Shown: in pieces, positions 187 to 13,176 of the stretch
Layout of the letters: each line of letters begins with the position of its first letter
How positions within the stretch are numbered: position 1 is the stretch's first letter
Source: an uncultured Rhodospirillaceae bacterium
Lineage (GTDB): Bacteria; Pseudomonadota; Alphaproteobacteria; Dongiales; Dongiaceae
Direction of reading: 5' to 3'
Assembly: GCA_964415425.1 (NCBI GenBank)
Contig: CAYQAG010000002.1
Location: 32,177 to 96,176 of the forward strand
DNA length: 64,000 nucleotides
Notes under the pieces: generated by a model
Seen by the model: the letters and a program-made list of their open reading frames with translations, nothing else
What the model was told of the DNA's origin: nothing
Databases searched by the model: none
Made by a program: the position numbers and the translations under genes

Positions 187-654
187 ATGATCCGCTATGC
201 CTTGATTTGCGCGAAGGCGCACGAATTCGAAACTTGGTTCAAGGATTCGACGACGGCCGACCGGCAATTGGCGCGCCAAAGCCTCGATTGCCCGGTCTGC
301 GGCGATCGGCGCATCCGGAAGGCCATCATGGCGCCGCGCCTCGGCCCTAGCGAGGATCGCCGCGCCGTGGAATCGCCGGCGCCGCTGACGCGCAAGGAAG
401 AGGCGGCGGGCGATTCGGTCATGGCCATGCCGCCGGCGGAATGGCGCGCCCAATTGCGCGAAATGCGCCGCCGGGTCGAGGCCGATTGCGATTACGTAGG
501 CCCGAATTTCGCCGAGGAAGCGCGCAAGATCCATTACGGCGAAAGCGATCGGCGCGGCATTTACGGCGAAGCCAGCGACGATCAGCACCGCGATCTTATC
601 GACGAGGGGATCGAGATCGCGCGCATTCCCTGGCTGCCGCACGACGATGCGTAA
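187..654 (+). CDS. DUF1178 family protein (zinc-ribbon)
   Basis: MIRYALICAKAHEFETWFKDS...CPVCG...AIMAP, and C-terminal DYVGPNFAEEARKIHYGE...GIYGEA, are typical DUF1178 motifs. Start moved from ORF-track 22 to the ATG at 187. Confidence 0.85.
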   Translation: MIRYALICAKAHEFETWFKDSTTADRQLARQSLDCPVCGDRRIRKAIMAPRLGPSEDRRAVESPAPLTRKEEAAGDSVMAMPPAEWRAQLREMRRRVEADCDYVGPNFAEEARKIHYGESDRRGIYGEASDDQHRDLIDEGIEIARIPWLPHDDA

Positions 655-889
655 CCGGGATCGTCCCTAGCGCAAATCCGATTTGGAACGGGTCGCGCGG
701 CCGTCGAGGCGCATGACGAAAGCGGCAAGACTTAGCGTCGATCCCATCGGCCGCCGATCGTTAGCACGCAGCGGAAAGATAGCGAGACTCATTGCATCGC
801 AGTCCTAAGGAAAAAGGAGCCTCAGGATAAGTCAGGCGGCAAAGTCTGGGCCAGGATATCGGCGACGACTTAAAGCGGAAAGCGCGATA

Positions 890-935
890 GTGGGGCGGGA
901 GAGGGGAATCGAATCCCCGTCGTAAGCTTGGGAAG
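890..935 (-). repeat. Displaced 3' fragment of tRNA-Gly(CCC); att-like direct repeat
   Basis: gtggggcgggagaggggaatcgaatccccgtcgtaagcttgggaag matches 3066..3111 at 43/46 positions in the same orientation. Identity stops just past the anticodon loop. Confidence 0.9.
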
Positions 936-1049
936 GAGATCTGGCTTTTCTAAATCAAAAACCTGCCTATTAGCTGAAGAAATCGATTGCAAATATCTTT
1001 GCTATTATGCAGTGTATAACTGGAGTCATATTCCAAGTGGAGAAGATCT

Positions 1050-3005
1050 ATGAAAGCGGCGCCTATTGAGATTGGAACGCTATTACAGAATCGAAATCGC
1101 TATTGCGTCCCAATATATCAACGCCACTACGTCTGGGATCGTGAGAAGCAATGGGAGCCATTTTGGCAGGACATACGTACTAAAGCCATAGAAAGGCTGG
1201 CTTGTCGTGAGCGGCGATTTTCTCATTTCATGGGAGCTATCGTACTTGAAAGTCGAGGGAAGCCCTCAGTCAAGCAAGTACCTTCTTTTCAAGTCGTGGA
1301 TGGACAGCAGCGGTTAACGACATTCCAATTGTTCCTTACTGCAGCGCGACATTATGCGCAATCTATAAATCACGAAAGTGCAGTAGGTAACATCACTCGC
1401 TATGTTCTAAACAGCGACGACCATCTCATGGAAGATAAGAGCGTCGAAGTCTATAAGGTTTGGCCGACTCAATCGAATAGACAGCTATTTGTGGATATTA
1501 TTATGTCAAAAGATCGTATAACACTAAAACATACCTATAGCCATCACTGGTACGCAAATCCTAATCGTGATCAAGTCAAAGAAAACAGCACCCCGACAAT
1601 GCTGCGGGCGTATGGCTACTTCTACGATCGCATCAGGCATTCAGTGGAAACGGATGATCTGAGCGATGATCTCGTTGAAGCGCCTGAAATCGAAGATAGC
1701 GGTTCATCGGCAAGTAGTGATTTGTCATCGAGAATACTGAAGTTTGATGCAATCTGGCAGTCGCTTCTAGAAGATTTCAAAGTCGTATCAATTATACTCG
1801 ATGAGGGAGATGACGCACAAGTTATCTTTGAGACTCTGAATGATCGTGGCGAACCTCTGTTAGCCGCTGATCTTATCCGTAACAATATTTTCCAACGTGC
1901 GGATGCTCGCCGTGAGAAAGCCGAAGCTTTATTCGAGCAACATTGGAAGTTTTTTGAACATTCTTTTTGGCGTGAGTTGGAAAAGCAAGGGCGCTATAAG
2001 AAACAGCGAATCGAGTTTTTCTTTGCCAATTTTATTGCGGGCAAAATTGCAGGTGATGTCACCATCTCTAAGCTATTCTCTGAGTATAAAGCTTTCTTAA
2101 AAGCAACGCAAAACGATACAAAATCTAAATATACTACTGTGCGAGAGGAGATCCAGGATCTTGAAACTCACGGCAAGATTTATCGAGAGATTGTTGAGCG
2201 GACATCTGGTTCATCGCTCGCGATATTTTCCACTCGCCTTCGGTCTTGGGATGTCACCACCATTAATCCTCTCCTGCTTAGGCTTTGGTCTAGTAACATG
2301 AGTGATGAGGAAAAGCAGCGTTCATTAGATATTTTATTATCCCTAATTGTTCGAAGAGCAGTGTGCGGCCTTACTTCTAAAAATTACAATAATCTTTTCC
2401 TCTCAATAATTGCTGATCTCGACAGGAAAGGATGGATGTATCAAAATCTCCGTATTTATCTTCTTGCTTTGACGGCGGAGAGCGGGCGCTTTCCAAACGA
2501 TGCAGAATTTGAGAATGCAATTGTGCAAAAACCATTGTATCAATTGCTTGGATCAGCACGCGTGCGTACACTGCTCTCAGAAATCGAATTAGCGAAGCGC
2601 GGGAGTAAGCAGGAAAGTAAATCCCTGCCAGAAATTCTTGCCATTGAGCATATTATGCCACAGGAATGGCGACAGCATTGGCCCATGATCGATAATATTC
2701 AACCGACAGACTCTGATTTCCAGCAAGCAAAATATACGAGCGCAGAAGACGGTACTGTCATTGAGGCTATCCGATACCGTGATCGGCTAATCCACACATT
2801 AGGTAATCTTACGTTGGTGACGAAGTCTTTCAATAGCAGTGTTGGTAATTTAACATTTGATAGAAAGCGGAAGGAGTTTGAGGATCAATCTATTCTAATG
2901 CTGACTAAGGATTTCATAAAAAAAGAAAAATGGAGTGAAAACGAGATTGTAGAACGAAGCAAGACGCTTTCTCAATATGCGCGGCAGATATGGAGCTCGC
3001 CATGA
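1050..3005 (+). CDS. DUF262 + DUF1524 protein (GmrSD / SspE-like restriction nuclease)
   Basis: DUF262 motifs VPIYQRHYVW, VVDGQQRLTT, IFETLNDRGEPL. DUF1524 HNH-type motifs IEHIMPQ and HTLGNLTLV..SFNSSVGN. Confidence 0.88.
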   Translation: MKAAPIEIGTLLQNRNRYCVPIYQRHYVWDREKQWEPFWQDIRTKAIERLACRERRFSHFMGAIVLESRGKPSVKQVPSFQVVDGQQRLTTFQLFLTAARHYAQSINHESAVGNITRYVLNSDDHLMEDKSVEVYKVWPTQSNRQLFVDIIMSKDRITLKHTYSHHWYANPNRDQVKENSTPTMLRAYGYFYDRIRHSVETDDLSDDLVEAPEIEDSGSSASSDLSSRILKFDAIWQSLLEDFKVVSIILDEGDDAQVIFETLNDRGEPLLAADLIRNNIFQRADARREKAEALFEQHWKFFEHSFWRELEKQGRYKKQRIEFFFANFIAGKIAGDVTISKLFSEYKAFLKATQNDTKSKYTTVREEIQDLETHGKIYREIVERTSGSSLAIFSTRLRSWDVTTINPLLLRLWSSNMSDEEKQRSLDILLSLIVRRAVCGLTSKNYNNLFLSIIADLDRKGWMYQNLRIYLLALTAESGRFPNDAEFENAIVQKPLYQLLGSARVRTLLSEIELAKRGSKQESKSLPEILAIEHIMPQEWRQHWPMIDNIQPTDSDFQQAKYTSAEDGTVIEAIRYRDRLIHTLGNLTLVTKSFNSSVGNLTFDRKRKEFEDQSILMLTKDFIKKEKWSENEIVERSKTLSQYARQIWSSP

Positions 3006-3066
3006 CACGGATGAGAAGCTAAATTTTCTAGTAAGTAGACGAAAGGCTCAAGCCATGCGGCGACCG

Positions 3067-3140
3067 TGGAGCGGGTGAGGGGAATCGAACCCCCGTCGTA
3101 AGCTTGGGAAGCTTCTGCTCTGCCATTGAGCTACACCCGC
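3067..3140 (-). tRNA. tRNA-Gly (anticodon CCC)
   Basis: Reverse complement GCGGGTGTAGCTCAATGGCAGAGCAGAAGCTTCCCAAGCTTACGACGGGGGTTCGATTCCCCTCACCCGCTCCA: acceptor stem, D arm, CCC anticodon, GTTCGA T-loop, encoded CCA. Confidence 0.97.
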
Positions 3141-3171
3141 CCAGGATTTCGTCCCGGTCAGCCTGACGGAA

Positions 3172-3200
3172 TTTATAGGCGATCGTCCTCGGATCGGCAA
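3172..3200 (-). promoter_or_regulatory. sigma70-like promoter of tRNA-Gly
   Basis: TTGCCG-N17-TATAAA on the minus strand about 30 bp upstream of the tRNA. Confidence 0.65.
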
Positions 3201-3332
3201 GCCGGCCGGGCTTGGGCTTTTCGGTCACGATTGCGTGGCCGGAGGCGCTCGGCGATTGTTGCCGCCGATCGATCCCGTTAGGCTTGGATCGCGGGATCAT
3301 AGCGATCCGCGATTCGGGAAGAGGGGGAGACC

Positions 3333-4583
3333 ATGGCCCGGCCGATATCGAGCGCGTTTTCTTCGCGGCGCGATCTTCTGCGTGCCGGTGCCGGGGGCCT
3401 GGCCGCTACTCTCTTTCCCATTATTCGCGGCGCCTGGGCTTCATCCCCGCCGGCCGATTTCGCGGCAGCCTTGGCGGCGGCCAAGGGTCAGGAGGTCTAT
3501 TTCAATGCCTGGGGCGGCGATCAGCGGATCAACGATTACATCGCCTGGGCGGGAGCGGAAATCGAACGCCGCTTCGGCGTCAAGCTCATCCATGTGAAGC
3601 TCGCCGATACGGCCGAGGCGGTCAATCGCGTGCTCGGCGAAAAGGCGGCCGGGCGGATGGAAGGCGGCAGCGTCGATCTCATCTGGATCAATGGCGAAAA
3701 TTTCGCAGCGATGAAGACGCAAAATTTGCTCTTCGGGCCGATCACGCCGCTTTTGCCCAGCATGGCTTTCGTCGATCCCATCCGCAAACCCAGCACGATC
3801 GTCGATTTCACCGTCCCGACCGACGGCTTCGAGGTGCCCTGGGGCATGGCGCAACTGGTTTTCTTTCACGACAGCCTGCGTTTGCCCGAACCGCCGCGCT
3901 CCTTCGCGGCGCTAGCCGATTGGGCCAAGGCCAAGCCCGGCCGCTTCACCTATCCGCTGCCGCCCGATTTCATCGGCACCACGTTTCTGAAACAGGCGCT
4001 GATCCAAATCGTCGGCGATGCCAAGCGTCTTGCCATGCCGGCGATCGAAACCGATATCGATGTCTTCACGGCGCCGCTTTGGGCCTATCTCGACGAATTG
4101 CATCCCTATCTCTGGCAAAAAGGCCGCGCCTTTCCGCCGAATAGCGCCGATCTTCGGCAATTGCTGGGCGATGGCGAGGTCGATATTTCGATGGCCTTCA
4201 ATCCCGGCGATGCGAGTTCCGCCATCGCGCAGAATCTGCTGCCCGATACGGTGCGCAGTTTCGTCTTCGCCGGCGGTTCCATCGGCAATACGCATTTCCT
4301 CGCCGTTCCCTTCAACGCCAAGGCGGCGGAAGGCGCGCTTGTCGTCGCCGAATTCCTGCTTTCGCCCGAAGCGCAGGCGCGCAAGCAAGACCCCGCCATC
4401 TGGGGCGATCCCACGGTTTTGGAAATCGATCTTCTGGCCGAGGCCGATCGCGCGCGCTTCGCGGCGCTGCCGCTCGGCATCGCGACTCTGCCGCCCGAGA
4501 AGCTGGGGCCGATCCTTCCCGAACCGCATCCGAGCTGGGTCGAGGCGATCGAATCGCGTTGGATTCGGCGCTACGCGGGCTGA
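3333..4583 (+). CDS. ynjB: ABC transporter substrate-binding protein, YnjB-like, with Tat-like signal
   Basis: SRRDLL twin-Arg N-terminus; VYFNAWGG, DLIWINGENF, PWGMAQLVF, RFTYPLPPDF.GTTFLKQ, IGNTHFLAVPFNA motifs; GGAG RBS. Confidence 0.8.
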   Translation: MARPISSAFSSRRDLLRAGAGGLAATLFPIIRGAWASSPPADFAAALAAAKGQEVYFNAWGGDQRINDYIAWAGAEIERRFGVKLIHVKLADTAEAVNRVLGEKAAGRMEGGSVDLIWINGENFAAMKTQNLLFGPITPLLPSMAFVDPIRKPSTIVDFTVPTDGFEVPWGMAQLVFFHDSLRLPEPPRSFAALADWAKAKPGRFTYPLPPDFIGTTFLKQALIQIVGDAKRLAMPAIETDIDVFTAPLWAYLDELHPYLWQKGRAFPPNSADLRQLLGDGEVDISMAFNPGDASSAIAQNLLPDTVRSFVFAGGSIGNTHFLAVPFNAKAAEGALVVAEFLLSPEAQARKQDPAIWGDPTVLEIDLLAEADRARFAALPLGIATLPPEKLGPILPEPHPSWVEAIESRWIRRYAG

Positions 4584-9733: not shown

Positions 9734-10201
9734 TCAATCCAGCGCCTTGGCGGCGGCGAGCACTTCGGTCGCATGGCCCGGCACCTTCACCTTGCGCCAG
9801 ATGCCGCGCAAGATTCCCTTGCCGTCGATCAGGAAGGTCGCGCGTTCGATGCCCATATATTTGCGGCCATACATGCTTTTCTCGACCCAGACGCCATAGG
9901 CTTCGGTGACCTTGCCGGTTTCGTCGGCGCCGAGCGGAAAATTGAGATCGTATTTCTTCTTGAATTTGTCGTGGCTCGCCACCGAATCGCGCGAAACGCC
10001 GATCACCGCCGCCTTCGCCTTGCGGAAATCGGGTGCGGCATCGCGAAAGGCGCAGGCTTCCGCCGTGCAGCCGCTGGTATCGTCCTTGGGGTAAAAATAG
10101 AGGATGAGAGGCCGCCCCTTAAAATCGCCGAGGCCGATCTTGCCGCCGCCATCGGTCGCCAGCGAGAAATTCGGTGCCTTGTCGCCGATCTTCAAACTCA
10201 T
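9734..10201 (-). CDS. bcp: Peroxiredoxin Bcp
   Basis: GDKAPNFSL, YFYPKDDTSGCTAEAC, KSMYGRKYMGIERATFLID. Confidence 0.93.
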   Translation of the reverse strand: MSLKIGDKAPNFSLATDGGGKIGLGDFKGRPLILYFYPKDDTSGCTAEACAFRDAAPDFRKAKAAVIGVSRDSVASHDKFKKKYDLNFPLGADETGKVTEAYGVWVEKSMYGRKYMGIERATFLIDGKGILRGIWRKVKVPGHATEVLAAAKALD

Positions 10202-10227
10202 CGTCTTCTCCCTATCGCGGCTTTCCA

Positions 10228-13176
10228 TCATGTCGCCGAGATTAGCCGAGCGAAGGCGGCGGCGACAAGGCCGGCGCATCTTTCGATTTCGCTTTTGAGC
10301 GCGGCGAAATCGGCGCAGCCGGCGCTTTCGGCGAGCTTGCGGCGGATTTGCGGGCGCAATTCCGCTTCGACGATCGCGCCGCCGATGGCAAGGCGCGAGA
10401 TTTGCAGCAATCGCCGCCAGAGGCGAAGGGCGGCGCGCAAATCCTCGGCGGTTTCGCGGTCGAGCAATCCAGTCGCCTGGGCGGCGGCAAGGATGGCGCC
10501 CGGTTCGCCGGCCGCAAGCTCGGGATGCGCCCAACCATGGCAGAGCAGAAGATATTGCGCGATGAAGTCGAGATCGACCATGCCGCCCGGGCGATATTTG
10601 ATATCCCAGAAATCCTCGCCGCGGTGCTGGCTGCGGATACGTTCGCGCATGTCGCGGCAATCTTGCGCGAGTTTCGTAGGTTCGCGCTCCATCGTCAGCA
10701 ATCCGTCGATCTTGCTTCGGATTTCGGCGGCGAAATCGGCATCGCCGCAAATGACGCGCGCGCGCGTCAGCGCCATATGCTCCCAGGTCCAGGCTTCATT
10801 CCGCTGATAGCGCAGGAAGGGATCGAGGCCGGAGGCGATCGGCCCCGAATTGCCGCTAGGGCGCAGGCGCATATCGACTTCGAAGAGTGTGCCTTCGCCG
10901 GTGCGGGCGGCAATGGCGGCGATGATGCGCTGCGCGAGGCGCGCGAAATACTGGATCGGCGCCAAGGGCTTGGCGCCGTCCGAGGCGATTTTTTCCCAAT
11001 CGGCGCGATCGGCGGGAATATCGTAAATGAAGATGAGATCGAGATCGGAGGTGATCGTCATTTCCCGGCTGCCGAGTTTGCCGAGCGCGATGACGGCGAG
11101 ATCGCGCCCCGGCAGACGGCCATGCTGGGCCTGGAATTCGGCGCGGACACGCGGGGAAAGCGCGCCGATGGCAAGATCGGCGATATCGGCGAGAATCGGA
11201 CCGGCCGCATCGCCGTCGAGCGCGCCGCGCAGAAGCGCGACGCCGATTTGAAAGAAGCGATCCTTGGTCCAGCGGCGAATGAGGTCGAGCGCATCCTGAT
11301 AATCGGCGGCGAGCGTCAGATTGGCATCGAGATCGGCGGCGAGCCTAGCGCGGTCGGGCAGGCGGGATTCGTTTCCGGCGGCCAATAGGCCGTCCAGCAA
11401 AGCCGGCGAACGGGCGAGATTGTCGGCGAGCAACGGCGCCGTTCCCATGATCTCGGCGATGAGACCGAGGAGATCGGGATTGGCTTGAAGCAGCGAGAAC
11501 ACCTGAACGCCGGCCGGCAGCGCCTGCAGGAAGGCATCGAAACGGCGAAAGGCGGTATCGGGATCGGCGCTGGCGGCGAGGGCGGCAAGCAAGCGGGGCA
11601 TCAATTCGGTGAGGATTTCGCGCGCGCGCGCGCTGCGCGTCGCCCGATAGCGGCCGTGATGCCAAGCCCGGACGGCGCCCGCGACGGCGGAAGGATCGGG
11701 AAAGCCCATCGCCGCCAGATTGCGGATCGTATCGGGATCGTCCTCGGTGCCGGTGAAGACCAGGGACCCTTCGGCATTGCCGAGCGAAGGCGATTCCTCG
11801 AACAATTCGGCATAGCGATCCTCGACCTTGCCGAGATGCTCGCGCAAGGAACCGGAAAAATCCGCTATGCCGCGATGGCCGCAGAAAATGGCGAGCCTTT
11901 CGAGCGCGCCGCTATCTTCGGGCAGCGTCTGGGTCTGATGGTCGTCGATCATCTGCAGGCGATGCTCGACATGACGAAGATAGCGATAGGCGGCGATTAA
12001 GTCTTCGGCGATTTCCGGGCGGCATTGGCCATGCGCGGCCAAAGCGGCGATGGCGGGGAGCGTGCCGCGTTGGCGCAAGCCCGGCCGCCTCCCGCCCCAG
12101 ATCAATTGCTGGGTCTGCGCGAAGAATTCGATTTCGCGAATGCCGCCGCGACCGAGCTTGATATTGTGTCCCGCTACCGCGATCTGGCGATGGCCCTTGA
12201 CCGCATGAATCTGCCGCTTGATGGAATGGATGTCGGCGATGGCGGCGAAGTCGAGATGCTTGCGCCAGATGAAGGGCCGCAGCCGATCGAGGAAACGCTG
12301 ACCGGCCGCCTTGTCGCCCGCGACCGCCCGCGCCTTGATCATGGCGGCGCGTTCCCAATTCTGCCCCATGCCTTCGTAATAGGCTTCGGCGGCCAAAGTC
12401 GATAAAGCGAGCGGCGTCGATCCGGGGTCGGGCCGCAGGCGGAGATCGACGCGAAAGACATAGCCGTCGGCGGTCGCTTCCTGCAGCAGGCGAACGAGAT
12501 CGCGCGCGAGGCGCACGCAGCATTCCTGGAGCGAGCGGCGACCGCGATAGACGATTCGGTCGCGATCGTAGAGGATGATGAGATCGATATCGCTGGAATA
12601 ATTCAATTCCCGGGCGCCCAGCTTGCCGAGGCCGAGTACGATGAGGCCGCTATCCGCTGTCGGCGATGCGGGGTCGGGGAGGTCGATCTCGCCCGCTTGG
12701 CGCCGTTGATCGAGAAGATAGGCCAAGGCCGTTTCCAAGGCGGTATCGGCGAGATCGCTCAAGGCCCCAGTCACAGTTTCGAGCGGCCACCACCCGGCGA
12801 GATCGGCCATGGCGATCAGCAAGGCGGCGCGGCGGCGGGCGCGGCGCAAATCGCGCATGAGATCGGCCTCGCTCGCGCAACTTTGATGAGCGCGGCGGAG
12901 ATCAGCCAGGAGATTGGCGAAGACAGAATCGGCGCCATCGGCTAAAACTTGGTCGAAGAAAGCGCCTTCCGCGGCAAGGATATGGGCAAGGAAGGGCGAA
13001 TTGCCGCAAAGGGCGGCGATCAGCTGGGGCGGACCGGGTTCGGCCAGCCTCGCTGCGGCTGCACCTTGGGCGGTCGCGGCATAGCGCGTAAGCCCGATGG
13101 CCGCGGCCTTGGCATCGGCAGCCTCGGGCAGGCGTTCGGGATCGAGTCGAGGAGGGATGGCGACCATGTCGGGCAA
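10228..13176 (-). CDS. glnE: Bifunctional glutamine synthetase adenylyltransferase/adenylyl-removing enzyme
   Basis: Two nucleotidyltransferase domains (LGKLGARELNYSSDIDLI; LGKLGSREMTITSDLDLI), VDLRLRP, WERAAMIKAR, NIKLGRGGIREIEF. Confidence 0.95.
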   Translation of the reverse strand: MPDMVAIPPRLDPERLPEAADAKAAAIGLTRYAATAQGAAAARLAEPGPPQLIAALCGNSPFLAHILAAEGAFFDQVLADGADSVFANLLADLRRAHQSCASEADLMRDLRRARRRAALLIAMADLAGWWPLETVTGALSDLADTALETALAYLLDQRRQAGEIDLPDPASPTADSGLIVLGLGKLGARELNYSSDIDLIILYDRDRIVYRGRRSLQECCVRLARDLVRLLQEATADGYVFRVDLRLRPDPGSTPLALSTLAAEAYYEGMGQNWERAAMIKARAVAGDKAAGQRFLDRLRPFIWRKHLDFAAIADIHSIKRQIHAVKGHRQIAVAGHNIKLGRGGIREIEFFAQTQQLIWGGRRPGLRQRGTLPAIAALAAHGQCRPEIAEDLIAAYRYLRHVEHRLQMIDDHQTQTLPEDSGALERLAIFCGHRGIADFSGSLREHLGKVEDRYAELFEESPSLGNAEGSLVFTGTEDDPDTIRNLAAMGFPDPSAVAGAVRAWHHGRYRATRSARAREILTELMPRLLAALAASADPDTAFRRFDAFLQALPAGVQVFSLLQANPDLLGLIAEIMGTAPLLADNLARSPALLDGLLAAGNESRLPDRARLAADLDANLTLAADYQDALDLIRRWTKDRFFQIGVALLRGALDGDAAGPILADIADLAIGALSPRVRAEFQAQHGRLPGRDLAVIALGKLGSREMTITSDLDLIFIYDIPADRADWEKIASDGAKPLAPIQYFARLAQRIIAAIAARTGEGTLFEVDMRLRPSGNSGPIASGLDPFLRYQRNEAWTWEHMALTRARVICGDADFAAEIRSKIDGLLTMEREPTKLAQDCRDMRERIRSQHRGEDFWDIKYRPGGMVDLDFIAQYLLLCHGWAHPELAAGEPGAILAAAQATGLLDRETAEDLRAALRLWRRLLQISRLAIGGAIVEAELRPQIRRKLAESAGCADFAALKSEIERCAGLVAAAFARLISAT

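What the first reader, a model, noticed from the sequence alone, without database searches (positions are those of the whole stretch)
890..3140. Minimal integrase-less defence islet inserted at tRNA-Gly(CCC)
Seen: an intact tRNA-Gly (3067-3140, minus) has a 46-bp same-orientation copy of its 3' half about 2.2 kb downstream (890-935, 3 mismatches), with identity ending at the anticodon loop. Between them lies one AT-rich gene and no integrase, excisionase or mobility gene. Established: a displaced 3' tRNA fragment ending at the anticodon loop is the typical attL/attR footprint of tyrosine integrases. Inference: this is either the residue of a larger island reduced to its defence cargo, or a satellite-like single-gene cassette mobilised in trans. 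The site may be a rotating anti-phage hotspot. The mismatches suggest an old insertion.
Basis: partly seen in the sequence, partly recalled or inferred. Interest (0 to 1): 0.75.

Follow-up and report, generated by a model that had tools for sequence, protein, structure and literature searches.

The report
One-gene defence islet at tRNA-Gly
A 2.1-kb piece of foreign DNA carrying a single intact anti-phage restriction gene (GmrSD type) sits between an intact tRNA-Gly gene and a decayed copy of that tRNA's 3' half; it is most likely the stranded last remnant of an integrase-borne island, a known kind of element, at a site that relatives use again and again for other islands.

Summary
**Observation:** confirmed. 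tRNA-Gly(CCC) (3067-3140, minus strand) has a same-orientation copy of its 3' part at 891-935 (45 nt, 3 mismatches). GC falls from about 63% to 43% exactly between the two.

**Content:** the only gene (1050-3005) is an intact GmrSD-family type IV restriction enzyme. It is absent from all 23 congeners. The islet holds no integrase or remnant, and the genome has no cognate integrase.

**Comparative evidence:** seven of about 60 related genomes carry islands (2.1-206 kb) at the same tRNA sublocation.
- Three carry intact tyrosine integrases, of two unrelated families.
- One 4.4-kb islet keeps a 31-codon integrase stub.
- All four of those keep tandem arm-type repeats at both inner ends. The window's islet and one other small islet have none.

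**Conclusion:** a decayed, now immobile island remnant. Structurally it is a CIME (att sites kept, integrase lost).

**Hotspot claim:** only partly supported. Recognised defence cargo occurs in 2 of the 6 islands whose cargo was read.

**Unexpected:** GmrSD orthologs lie in the same geometry beside three other tRNAs. Two of these, in different orders and at different tRNA-Arg genes, share an 86%-identical 2.1-kb single-gene unit with unrelated flanks. So arrival as a pre-reduced, helper-mobilised unit remains a live rival.

**Verdict:** new member of a known kind; moderate interest.

The parts
187..654 (+). DUF1178 gene, the host flank beyond the islet. It is not adjacent to tRNA-Gly in any relative.
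   Evidence: Pfam PF06676, 2.2e-50. GC3 is 0.78. Its positions in relatives are elsewhere.
655..890 (.). Host-side non-coding flank, GC about 0.58-0.62. Bases 884-890 match 5/7 with 3060-3066, a possible short extension of the att identity.
   Evidence: No Rfam family and no further att copy here.
891..935 (-). Displaced, decayed copy of tRNA-Gly(CCC) positions 30-74. This is the distal att site and islet boundary.
   Evidence: 42/45 identity to 3067-3111. It is the only other match in the genome. Score 39 against a null of 12-14.
936..1049 (+). 114-nt AT-rich inner end of the islet, holding the 5' untranslated and promoter region of the cargo gene. No arm-type tandem repeats.
   Evidence: No consensus sigma-70 site was found by the simple scan.
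1050..3005 (+). GmrSD-family type IV (modification-dependent) restriction endonuclease gene, 651 aa, intact.
   Evidence: Pfam GmrSD_N 1.5e-37 and GmrSD_C 2.6e-25. PADLOC mREase_IV 2.6e-107. DGQQR at 84-88, EHIMP at 533-537, GNLTL..NS..N at 585-600. 6/241 deviations at otherwise invariant sites, within the ortholog range. GC3 is 0.41.
3006..3066 (.). 61-nt inner end between the cargo stop codon and the tRNA 3' end. This is where intact islands in G011 and G002 carry arm repeats and the integrase start; there is neither here.
3067..3140 (-). Intact tRNA-Gly(CCC). Bases 3067-3111 are the proximal att identity block.
   Evidence: ARAGORN. Rfam RF00005, 66.4 bits.
3333..4583 (+). ABC-transporter substrate-binding protein (ynjB/thiamine-type SBP). 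This is the conserved host neighbour of tRNA-Gly(CCC) in relatives.
   Evidence: Pfam SBP_bac_8. Adjacent to the tRNA in at least 15 congeners.

Best explanation
The islet is the stranded remnant of a genomic island. A tyrosine integrase inserted that island into the anticodon-loop sublocation of tRNA-Gly(CCC), regenerating the tRNA and displacing its original 3' part. Deletions, either in this small genome or in a previous host, then removed the integrase, its arm-type binding sites and all other cargo. One self-sufficient gene remains: a GmrSD-type enzyme. By homology, such an enzyme uses an N-terminal DUF262 NTPase domain and a C-terminal DUF1524 His-Me/HNH nuclease domain to cut modified (for example hydroxymethyl- or glucosyl-cytosine) phage DNA. 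It needs no methyltransferase partner.

- **Shown:** the att duplication, the foreign composition, the absence of the gene from congeners, the intact catalytic motifs, the absence of an integrase or arm repeats, and the same decay route in a congener.
- **Inferred:** the integrase mechanism, the deletion history, present immobility, and the anti-phage activity and its specificity.

Structurally the islet fits the definition of a CIME (att sites retained, integration and transfer genes lost). It probably can no longer move.
For: - **Att footprint and composition step:**
- **Cargo identity and integrity:**. Family mechanism from PMC8565348.
- **Phyletic pattern:** the gene is absent from 23/23 congeners.
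- **Same sublocation in relatives:** positions 29-74 are used by islands in G011 and G002 with homologous integrases right beside the tRNA, and positions 31-74 by G062 with an unrelated integrase.
- **Empty site:** G007 is a clean empty-site allele of G011's island.
- **Decay route seen directly:** G017's 4.4-kb islet keeps perfect repeats, arm repeats and only the first 31 integrase codons, with a stop.
- **Arm repeats:** tandem 10-11-bp-period repeats are present at both inner ends of all four islands with an integrase or its stub. They are absent from the window and from the integrase-less G047 islet.
- **No helper in the genome:** the own genome's four integrase-domain hits are unrelated to the tRNA-Gly type.
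- **Neutral drift in the displaced copy:** it carries three derived changes, two of which are incompatible with a working tRNA.
- **Deletion-prone lineage:** the genome is 2.59 Mb at 100% completeness, against 3.6-6.1 Mb for near-complete congeners.
Against: - No integrase remnant or any other island debris survives in the window. The larger-island stage is therefore inferred from relatives, not seen here.
- Both ends are trimmed to within 61 and 114 nt of the gene while both att copies survive. That needs at least two fortunate deletions.
- The same tight geometry (convergent tRNA 61-135 nt after the stop) recurs at three other tRNAs among 51 ortholog loci, where about 0.05 would be expected by chance.
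- One such single-gene unit has evidently moved between genomes as a unit. This favours arrival in already reduced form.
- No close relative exists to show the empty site.
Confidence: 0.6

Rival explanations
1. The islet arrived already as a minimal, integrase-less, att-bounded single-gene unit (a mini-CIME). It was carried in by a helper island using the same tRNA site, either by tandem accretion and co-excision or by an integrase acting in trans. It was left behind when the helper excised or was lost. It may still be mobilisable if a helper returns.
For: - L128 (Reyranella, tRNA-Arg-ACG) and L130 (Pseudoxanthobacter, tRNA-Arg-CCG) share 86% DNA identity over a 2.1-kb single-gene GmrSD unit.
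- That homology starts abruptly at a 29-nt motif whose first 9 nt equal the tRNA-Arg(ACG) 3' terminus, and it ends at the tRNA. The outer flanks are unrelated.
- The motif is absent from about 90 other GmrSD loci.
- L130's low-GC segment is just that one gene.
- The same geometry occurs at four different tRNAs.
- The window's 21 nt around the anticodon loop, the presumed crossover region, are still perfect.
- The circularised islet would have about 220 nt of non-coding DNA, roughly attP-sized (own arithmetic).
- CIME accretion-mobilisation is documented (PMC5704250, PMC6323972).
Against: - No sibling of the window's own islet was found. Its three closest orthologs on retrievable contigs (77-79% aa; L207-L209) have no tRNA and unrelated flanks, and other close orthologs sit in larger mobile elements.
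- Its non-coding ends match nothing else.
- It has no arm-type repeats, unlike every integrase-linked island at this site.
- The displaced att has drifted (3/45).
- The genome has no cognate integrase.
Confidence: 0.27
2. The duplication was not made by an integrase. The gene, together with a fragment of a donor's tRNA-Gly, entered by homologous or illegitimate recombination anchored on the conserved tRNA sequence.
For: The displaced copy differs from the resident tRNA at three positions, and the far flank (DUF1178) is not syntenic with any relative. A rearrangement at this junction therefore cannot be excluded.
Against: - The repeat is in direct orientation and starts at the anticodon stem/loop, at the same position (29-31) as the integrase-made islands in five congeners, and it ends at the tRNA 3' end.
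- Two of the three differences would not occur in a functional donor tRNA.
- A second recombination anchor is lacking.
Confidence: 0.08
3. Assembly or binning artefact: a low-GC fragment from another organism was chimerically joined into this contig at tRNA-like sequence.
For: The genome is a 104-contig draft, and the segment's GC differs by 20 points.
Against: - The insert lies 33 kb into a 107-kb contig, with host-like sequence on both sides.
- It is bounded by a diverged repeat (42/45, not identical), which assemblers do not create.
- The same architecture is seen in independent assemblies.
Confidence: 0.03

Closest known systems
CIME (cis-mobilizable element; decayed ICE/IME that keeps attL and attR but has lost integration and transfer genes; PMC5704250, PMC6323972)
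   Same: It is bounded by a regenerated tRNA and its displaced fragment. It has no integrase, excisionase, relaxase or transfer genes. It lies at a site where integrase-bearing islands integrate in relatives.
   Different: It has one gene only, 2.1 kb. One att copy has drifted (3/45). No arm-type repeats were detected. Mobilisation is untested and no helper is present in the genome. The family was described mainly in Firmicutes; this is an alphaproteobacterium (Dongia-like).
tRNA-integrated genomic islands as defined by the Islander signature (PMC4383910) and the anticodon-loop sublocation class (Williams 2002, cited there; class assignment from my own knowledge)
   Same: An intact tDNA plus a same-orientation 3' fragment marks the ends. 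The identity block runs from the anticodon stem/loop to the 3' end. Composition is foreign.
   Different: It fails the integrase-gene filter, so such tools discard it by design. It is far smaller than typical islands.
GmrSD / BrxU family type IV restriction enzymes (PMC8565348)
   Same: A fused DUF262-DUF1524 single polypeptide, with DGQQR and (D/E)HxxP motifs. It is a stand-alone gene, and its orthologs are typical defence-island residents.
   Different: It is only distantly related in sequence to characterised members. The sole PDB hit is 9jfl over residues 6-111, E = 4e-14. Substrate specificity is unknown and no activity data exist.
G011 island in a congener (integrase + PDC-S06 ATPase + type ISP R-M + AAA_25 + Mob_Pre relaxase, 13 kb)
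   Same: The same tRNA, the same 46-nt att block, and defence cargo.
   Different: It is complete and mobilisable-looking: integrase, arm repeats, relaxase and perfect repeats. The cargo is different.

Membership tests
tRNA-integrated genomic island (Islander signature) | Intact tRNA gene plus a displaced, same-orientation fragment of its 3' part marking the two ends | tested here: met
   3067-3140 and 891-935, 42/45 identity.
tRNA-integrated genomic island (Islander signature) | Tyrosine integrase gene inside the island | tested here: not met
   PF00589 genome scan, tblastn and a sensitive tblastn found nothing in 936-3066.
tRNA-integrated genomic island (Islander signature) | Foreign origin (composition, patchy distribution) | tested here: met
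   GC3 is 0.41 against 0.75-0.78. The gene is absent from 23/23 congeners.
CIME (cis-mobilizable element) | Retains attL and attR | tested here: met
   Both core copies are present. The distal one has 3 mismatches, all outside the anticodon-loop region.
CIME (cis-mobilizable element) | Has lost integration and transfer genes | tested here: met
   The single ORF is GmrSD.
CIME (cis-mobilizable element) | Derives from an ICE/IME by decay | tested here: inconclusive
   There is no debris in the window. The decay route is shown for G017 at the same site.
CIME (cis-mobilizable element) | Can be mobilised in cis after accretion with a helper element | not testable with these tools
No tandem array or third att copy lies within 20-30 kb either side.
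Lambda/P4-type attP architecture (heterobivalent integrase substrate) | Arm-type integrase-binding repeats flanking the core on both inner ends | tested here: not met
   Tandem 10-11-bp-period repeats are shared by both ends in G017, G011, G002 and G062. There are none in the window; only one shared 7-mer, at chance level.
GmrSD-family type IV restriction enzyme | N-terminal DUF262 domain with the DGQQR NTPase motif | tested here: met
   PF03235, 1.5e-37. DGQQR at 84-88 is invariant among orthologs.
GmrSD-family type IV restriction enzyme | C-terminal DUF1524 His-Me/HNH nuclease domain with the (D/E)HxxP motif | tested here: met
   PF07510, 2.6e-25. EHIMP at 533-537 and GNLTL..N..N at 585-600.
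GmrSD-family type IV restriction enzyme | NTP-dependent cleavage of modified but not unmodified DNA; phage protection | not testable with these tools
   Needs expression and phage or DNA cleavage assays.
Phage satellite / integrative mobilizable element | Own integrase plus replication, relaxase or packaging-hijack genes | tested here: not met
   None are present.

The most novel reading that the evidence does not exclude
GmrSD genes form a family of one-gene, integrase-less, att-bounded hitchhikers (mini-CIMEs). Each consists of a tRNA-3'-like fragment, about 100 nt, the gene, about 65 nt, and then the tRNA. They relocate between tRNA genes and between bacterial orders by borrowing the integrases of helper islands that use the same sites. 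The window's islet is one member, parked at tRNA-Gly(CCC). This would be a cassette-like economy for spreading single defence genes, and it would be invisible to island finders that demand an integrase.
Probability: 0.25. Interest if true: 0.65.

Novelty: new member of a known kind. Interest (0 to 1): 0.38.

Why it matters
Taken alone, the islet is an ordinary outcome: islands at tRNA genes decay, and a self-sufficient defence gene is what selection would keep.

- **A complete decay series at one att site.** Within one bacterial family the site shows an empty allele, a 206-kb island, 19-kb and 13-kb islands with integrases, a 4.4-kb islet with an integrase stub, and 3.5-kb and 2.1-kb islets with nothing left. 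Co-varying arm repeats mark which copies are still recombination-competent.
- **A lead for the gene family.** The same GmrSD ortholog group sits in an identical one-gene layout at other tRNAs, and one such unit has crossed between orders intact. If single defence genes commonly travel as integrase-less att-bounded units, then defence-island surveys and island finders that require an integrase (Islander does, PMC4383910) systematically miss one route of immune-gene flow.

Tried and rejected
- **Same-species empty site or alternative cargo.** A JGI metagenome scan with the adjoining SBP gave at best 68% identity. A search of 5.8 billion proteins gave at best 69%. No close relative exists in public data.
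- **Cognate integrase elsewhere in the genome.** There are four integrase-domain loci (C34, C37, C94, C3). None is related to the tRNA-Gly integrases and none lies next to another att copy.
- **Integrase pseudogene in the islet.** Only noise hits (E of 0.2 or worse) inside the GmrSD frame.
- **Shared arm sites between the window and the congeners' islands.** MAFFT aligned a weak half-site at the ribosome-binding region. I judged it chance.
- **Further or tandem att copies and extra low-GC DNA around the islet.** None.
- **Displaced tRNA-Arg fragment in L034/L128 by long-match search.** None. Only the short terminal match at the homology boundary was found.
- **Census of tRNA-Gly(CCC)/SBP loci in 80 metagenome contigs.** 13 had the tRNA and none had extra copies. 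Uninformative.
- **Promoter and terminator scan.** Nothing above the shuffled expectation, and nothing in the 114-nt leader.
- **Homing-endonuclease-type mobility of the HNH gene.** Considered and rejected. Tens-of-nt tRNA 3' duplications with unrelated flanks are the signature of site-specific recombination, not of double-strand-break repair homing.
Full report
**1. The observation**

ARAGORN finds one tRNA in the first 8 kb, tRNA-Gly(CCC) at 3067-3140 on the minus strand. Rfam confirms it at 66.4 bits. The repeat finder reports a direct repeat, 884-935 vs 3060-3111, 52 nt at 90%.
- The tRNA-derived part is 891-935 against 3067-3111, which is tRNA positions 30-74, at 42/45.
- The repeat scores 39 in local alignment, against 12-14 for the best match in shuffled 60-kb sequence. 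It is the only other match in the whole 2.59-Mb assembly.
- GC drops from 0.58-0.72 to 0.39-0.48 between about 900 and 3000, then returns to 0.60-0.70. In 1-kb bins this is the only low-GC segment within 20 kb or more on either side.
- The single ORF (1050-3005) has GC3 of 0.41, against 0.75-0.78 for DUF1178, the SBP gene and the permease gene.

**2. The cargo**

The 651-aa product has Pfam GmrSD_N (1.5e-37) and GmrSD_C (2.6e-25). Its best PADLOC match is mREase_IV, 2.6e-107.
- Aligned with 11 orthologs, it is full length. It carries the DGQQR NTPase motif (84-88), an EHIMP motif (533-537, the counterpart of the family's DHIYP) and the GNLTL..NS..N block.
- In a leave-one-out count it departs from otherwise invariant columns at 6 of 241 sites, within the orthologs' own range of 1-24 and never in a motif. 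The gene therefore looks functional.
- The acidic stretch around residues 200-225, noted by another first-stage reader, is shared by all orthologs.
- By homology with BrxU and GmrSD (PMC8565348), the expected activity is NTP-dependent cleavage of DNA carrying modified cytosines. No methyltransferase partner is needed, which makes this a gene that can survive alone.
- The only solved-structure relative by sequence is 9jfl, over residues 6-111.

**3. No integrase**

A PF00589 scan of the whole genome gives four loci: C34 and C37 (Xer-like), C94 and C3. None is near the islet or near another att copy. tblastn with the integrases found at this tRNA in relatives finds nothing in the own genome beyond a weak Xer match. 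A very permissive search of the islet gives only noise.

**4. The same site in relatives**

The named relatives are Dongia and Dongiaceae records. I infer that they correspond to my G-handle genomes because contig lengths coincide. They are distant, at 55-69% aa identity in the flanking genes. None of the 23 congeners has the GmrSD gene. In them tRNA-Gly(CCC) lies 150-250 bp from the SBP gene, while DUF1178 is elsewhere.

Displaced copies of the tRNA 3' part occur in seven genomes of about 60:

| Genome | Island size | tRNA positions repeated | Repeat quality |
|---|---|---|---|
| G000 (window) | 2.13 kb | 30-74 | 42/45 |
| G047 | 3.45 kb | 35-74 | 90% |
| G017 | 4.38 kb | 29-74 | perfect |
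| G011 | 12.97 kb | 29-74 | perfect |
| G062 | 19.3 kb | 31-74 | 95% |
| G002 | 206 kb | 29-74 | perfect |
| G016 | unknown (split over two contigs) | 29-74 | 45/46 |

G007 is a clean empty site: its flank matches G011's post-island flank from the first base. Other congeners have 0.6-2.2 kb of variable DNA before the conserved flank begins.

**5. Integrases, arm sites and decay**

- G011 and G002 have homologous integrases (45% identity) starting about 70-90 bp after the tRNA.
- G062 has an unrelated 432-aa integrase at the distal end.
- Alignments of the inner ends show tandem repeats with a 10-11-bp period, present at both ends of each island and differing between islands: TGGGAYAATTTGGGACA in G017, TGTGACRATYYGTGACA in G011, TGGCACRATTTGGCACA in G002, and ATCCGGAAAAAATCCGGAAA in G062. 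I read these as arm-type integrase-binding sites. This is an inference from their position, symmetry and co-variation with the integrase.
- G017 has no integrase gene. At the place where G011's integrase starts, it keeps 31 codons that match G011 residues 1-31 at 42% with an in-frame stop (E = 0.001; it also matches G002's integrase). It also keeps both arm repeats. This is direct evidence that integrase loss at this hotspot produces integrase-less islets.
- The window and G047 have neither an integrase stub nor arm repeats.

**6. Cargo at the hotspot**

- G011: a PDC-S06-type AAA_13 ATPase, a 1,634-aa type ISP restriction-modification enzyme, an AAA_25 protein and a Mob_Pre relaxase. This is a mobilizable defence island.
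- G017: four ORFs without family matches, apart from a peptidoglycan-binding domain in one.
- G062: a pentapeptide-repeat protein, a PAS-GGDEF-EAL protein, an AraC regulator and unknowns.
- G047: a TetR regulator and a weak trypsin-like hit.

So the site is a general integration hotspot. Defence cargo is recognised in two of the six islands whose cargo I read.

**7. Where the gene lives elsewhere**

Orthologs at 73-79% aa identity occur in Mesorhizobium, Ancylobacter, Reyranella, Rhizobium, Xanthobacter, Methylobacterium and many metagenomes. Their contexts vary:
- a tRNA-Asn island with a P4-type integrase, AlpA, MobA, AbiE and type I R-M;
- an integrase/SIR2/type I R-M island;
- relaxase elements next to DISARM-like genes;
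- serine-recombinase elements.

DNA similarity to the window is confined to the coding region. All orthologs examined have higher GC3 (0.61-0.79) than the window's copy.

**8. An unexpected recurrence**

Among 51 ortholog loci from species-representative genomes, three have a convergent tRNA 72-135 bp after the stop and no hit to my integrase panel: L128 (Reyranella, Arg-ACG), L130 (Pseudoxanthobacter MAG, Arg-CCG) and L133 (Burkholderiales MAG, Asn-GTT). My estimate of the chance expectation is about 0.05 loci, assuming 50 tRNAs per 4 Mb, a 150-bp window and one orientation.
- L128 and L130 share 86% DNA identity over 2,213 bp (9913-12117 vs 1431-3637), with unrelated flanks.
- Homology begins abruptly at TGGCGCGC[CG/GC]GAGAGGATGAAACTGGGAA. 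Its first nine bases equal the 3' terminus of tRNA-Arg(ACG), and homology runs to the tRNA.
- The motif is absent from about 90 other GmrSD loci.
- In L130 the low-GC segment is just this gene, about 2.1 kb, between DNA of 72-79% GC.
- L130's left end resembles the Arg-ACG terminus (8/9) more than that of its own neighbour, Arg-CCG (7/9). This suggests the fragment travels with the unit.
- L169 has perfect 46-nt tRNA-Thr(CGT) repeats around an 8.3-kb island with no evident integrase, and its GmrSD is split into two ORFs.

Caveats: integrase absence in L130, L133 and L169 rests on a nine-protein tblastn panel and on ORF inspection. For L128 (the same locus as L034) it rests on precomputed Pfam annotation. 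The window's own closest orthologs (L207-L209) show no tRNA and no shared ends.

**9. Interpretation**

The footprint follows the principle that a regenerated tDNA and its displaced fragment mark island ends (PMC4383910). Its start at the anticodon stem/loop matches what integrase-bearing islands do at this very tRNA in relatives. The absence of the integrase, of arm repeats and of any helper in the genome, together with drift in the displaced copy, points to a stranded remnant. The G017 stub shows the route.

The definition of a CIME, attL and attR kept with integration and transfer genes lost (PMC5704250, PMC6323972), is met structurally. Mobilisability is untested and looks unlikely now.

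What remains open is whether the reduction happened in place or before arrival. The L128/L130 pair shows that a one-gene GmrSD unit can move as such. I therefore put 0.60 on the stranded-remnant reading with reduction by deletion, 0.27 on arrival as a pre-reduced helper-mobilised unit, 0.08 on a non-integrase origin and 0.03 on artefact.

On age: three substitutions in 45 nt suggest the insertion is not recent. That much neutral change would barely move GC3, so the unameliorated composition is not in conflict with it.

**10. Verdict**

This is a new member of a known kind, of moderate interest, mostly for the comparative series at one att site and for the lead on one-gene GmrSD units at tRNAs.

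Noticed in passing
L128:9913-12028 and L130:1431-3548: An 86%-identical 2.1-kb single-gene GmrSD unit lies beside tRNA-Arg(ACG) in a Reyranella MAG and beside tRNA-Arg(CCG) in a Pseudoxanthobacter MAG, with unrelated flanks. It starts at a 29-nt motif whose first 9 nt equal the tRNA-Arg(ACG) 3' end.
   Followed up: partly
L013:3723-8106 (G017): A 4.4-kb islet with perfect 46-nt repeats, arm repeats at both ends and a 31-codon integrase stub. It carries four co-oriented ORFs (198, 230, 360 and 156 aa) with no Pfam or PADLOC match except a peptidoglycan-binding domain. This is an uncharacterised cargo operon.
   Followed up: partly
L013, L014, L021/L022, L125/L126 inner ends: Tandem 10-11-bp-period repeats are present at both inner ends of each island and co-vary with the integrase type (GGGACA, GTGACA, GGCACA, ATCCGGAAA). 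They are candidate arm-type binding sites that could serve as a marker of recombination competence.
   Followed up: partly
L169:4632-13093: Perfect 46-nt tRNA-Thr(CGT) direct repeats bound an 8.3-kb island in an uncultured alphaproteobacterium. No integrase is evident and its GmrSD copy is split into two ORFs, so it is probably a pseudogene.
   Followed up: partly
whole genome G000: The assembly is 2.59 Mb at 100% estimated completeness, while near-complete same-genus genomes are 3.6-6.1 Mb. No protein closer than 69% to the SBP exists among 5.8 billion proteins. This is a small-genome, deeply branching Dongia-like lineage.
   Followed up: no
G000 contig C94:1-1075: A 358-aa phage-type integrase lies at the edge of a 2.9-kb contig. 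It is unrelated to the tRNA-Gly integrases and its element and att site are unknown.
   Followed up: no
L021/L022 (G002 C24:70620-277088): A roughly 206-kb island is bounded by perfect 46-nt tRNA-Gly(CCC) repeats, with an integrase beside the tRNA. It is of ICE or symbiosis-island size and its content was not examined.
   Followed up: no
L035 and L037: GmrSD orthologs sit next to the same HTH_17 + DEAD/MZB helicase (about 1,770 aa) + SNF2 helicase (+ N6 methylase) module, which is DISARM-like, in two different mobile backbones.
   Followed up: no
window 1650-1740 (protein residues about 200-225): The acidic, serine-rich stretch that another first-stage note flagged as an 'insertion' is present in all 11 orthologs aligned. 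It is a family linker feature, not peculiar to this copy.
   Followed up: yes
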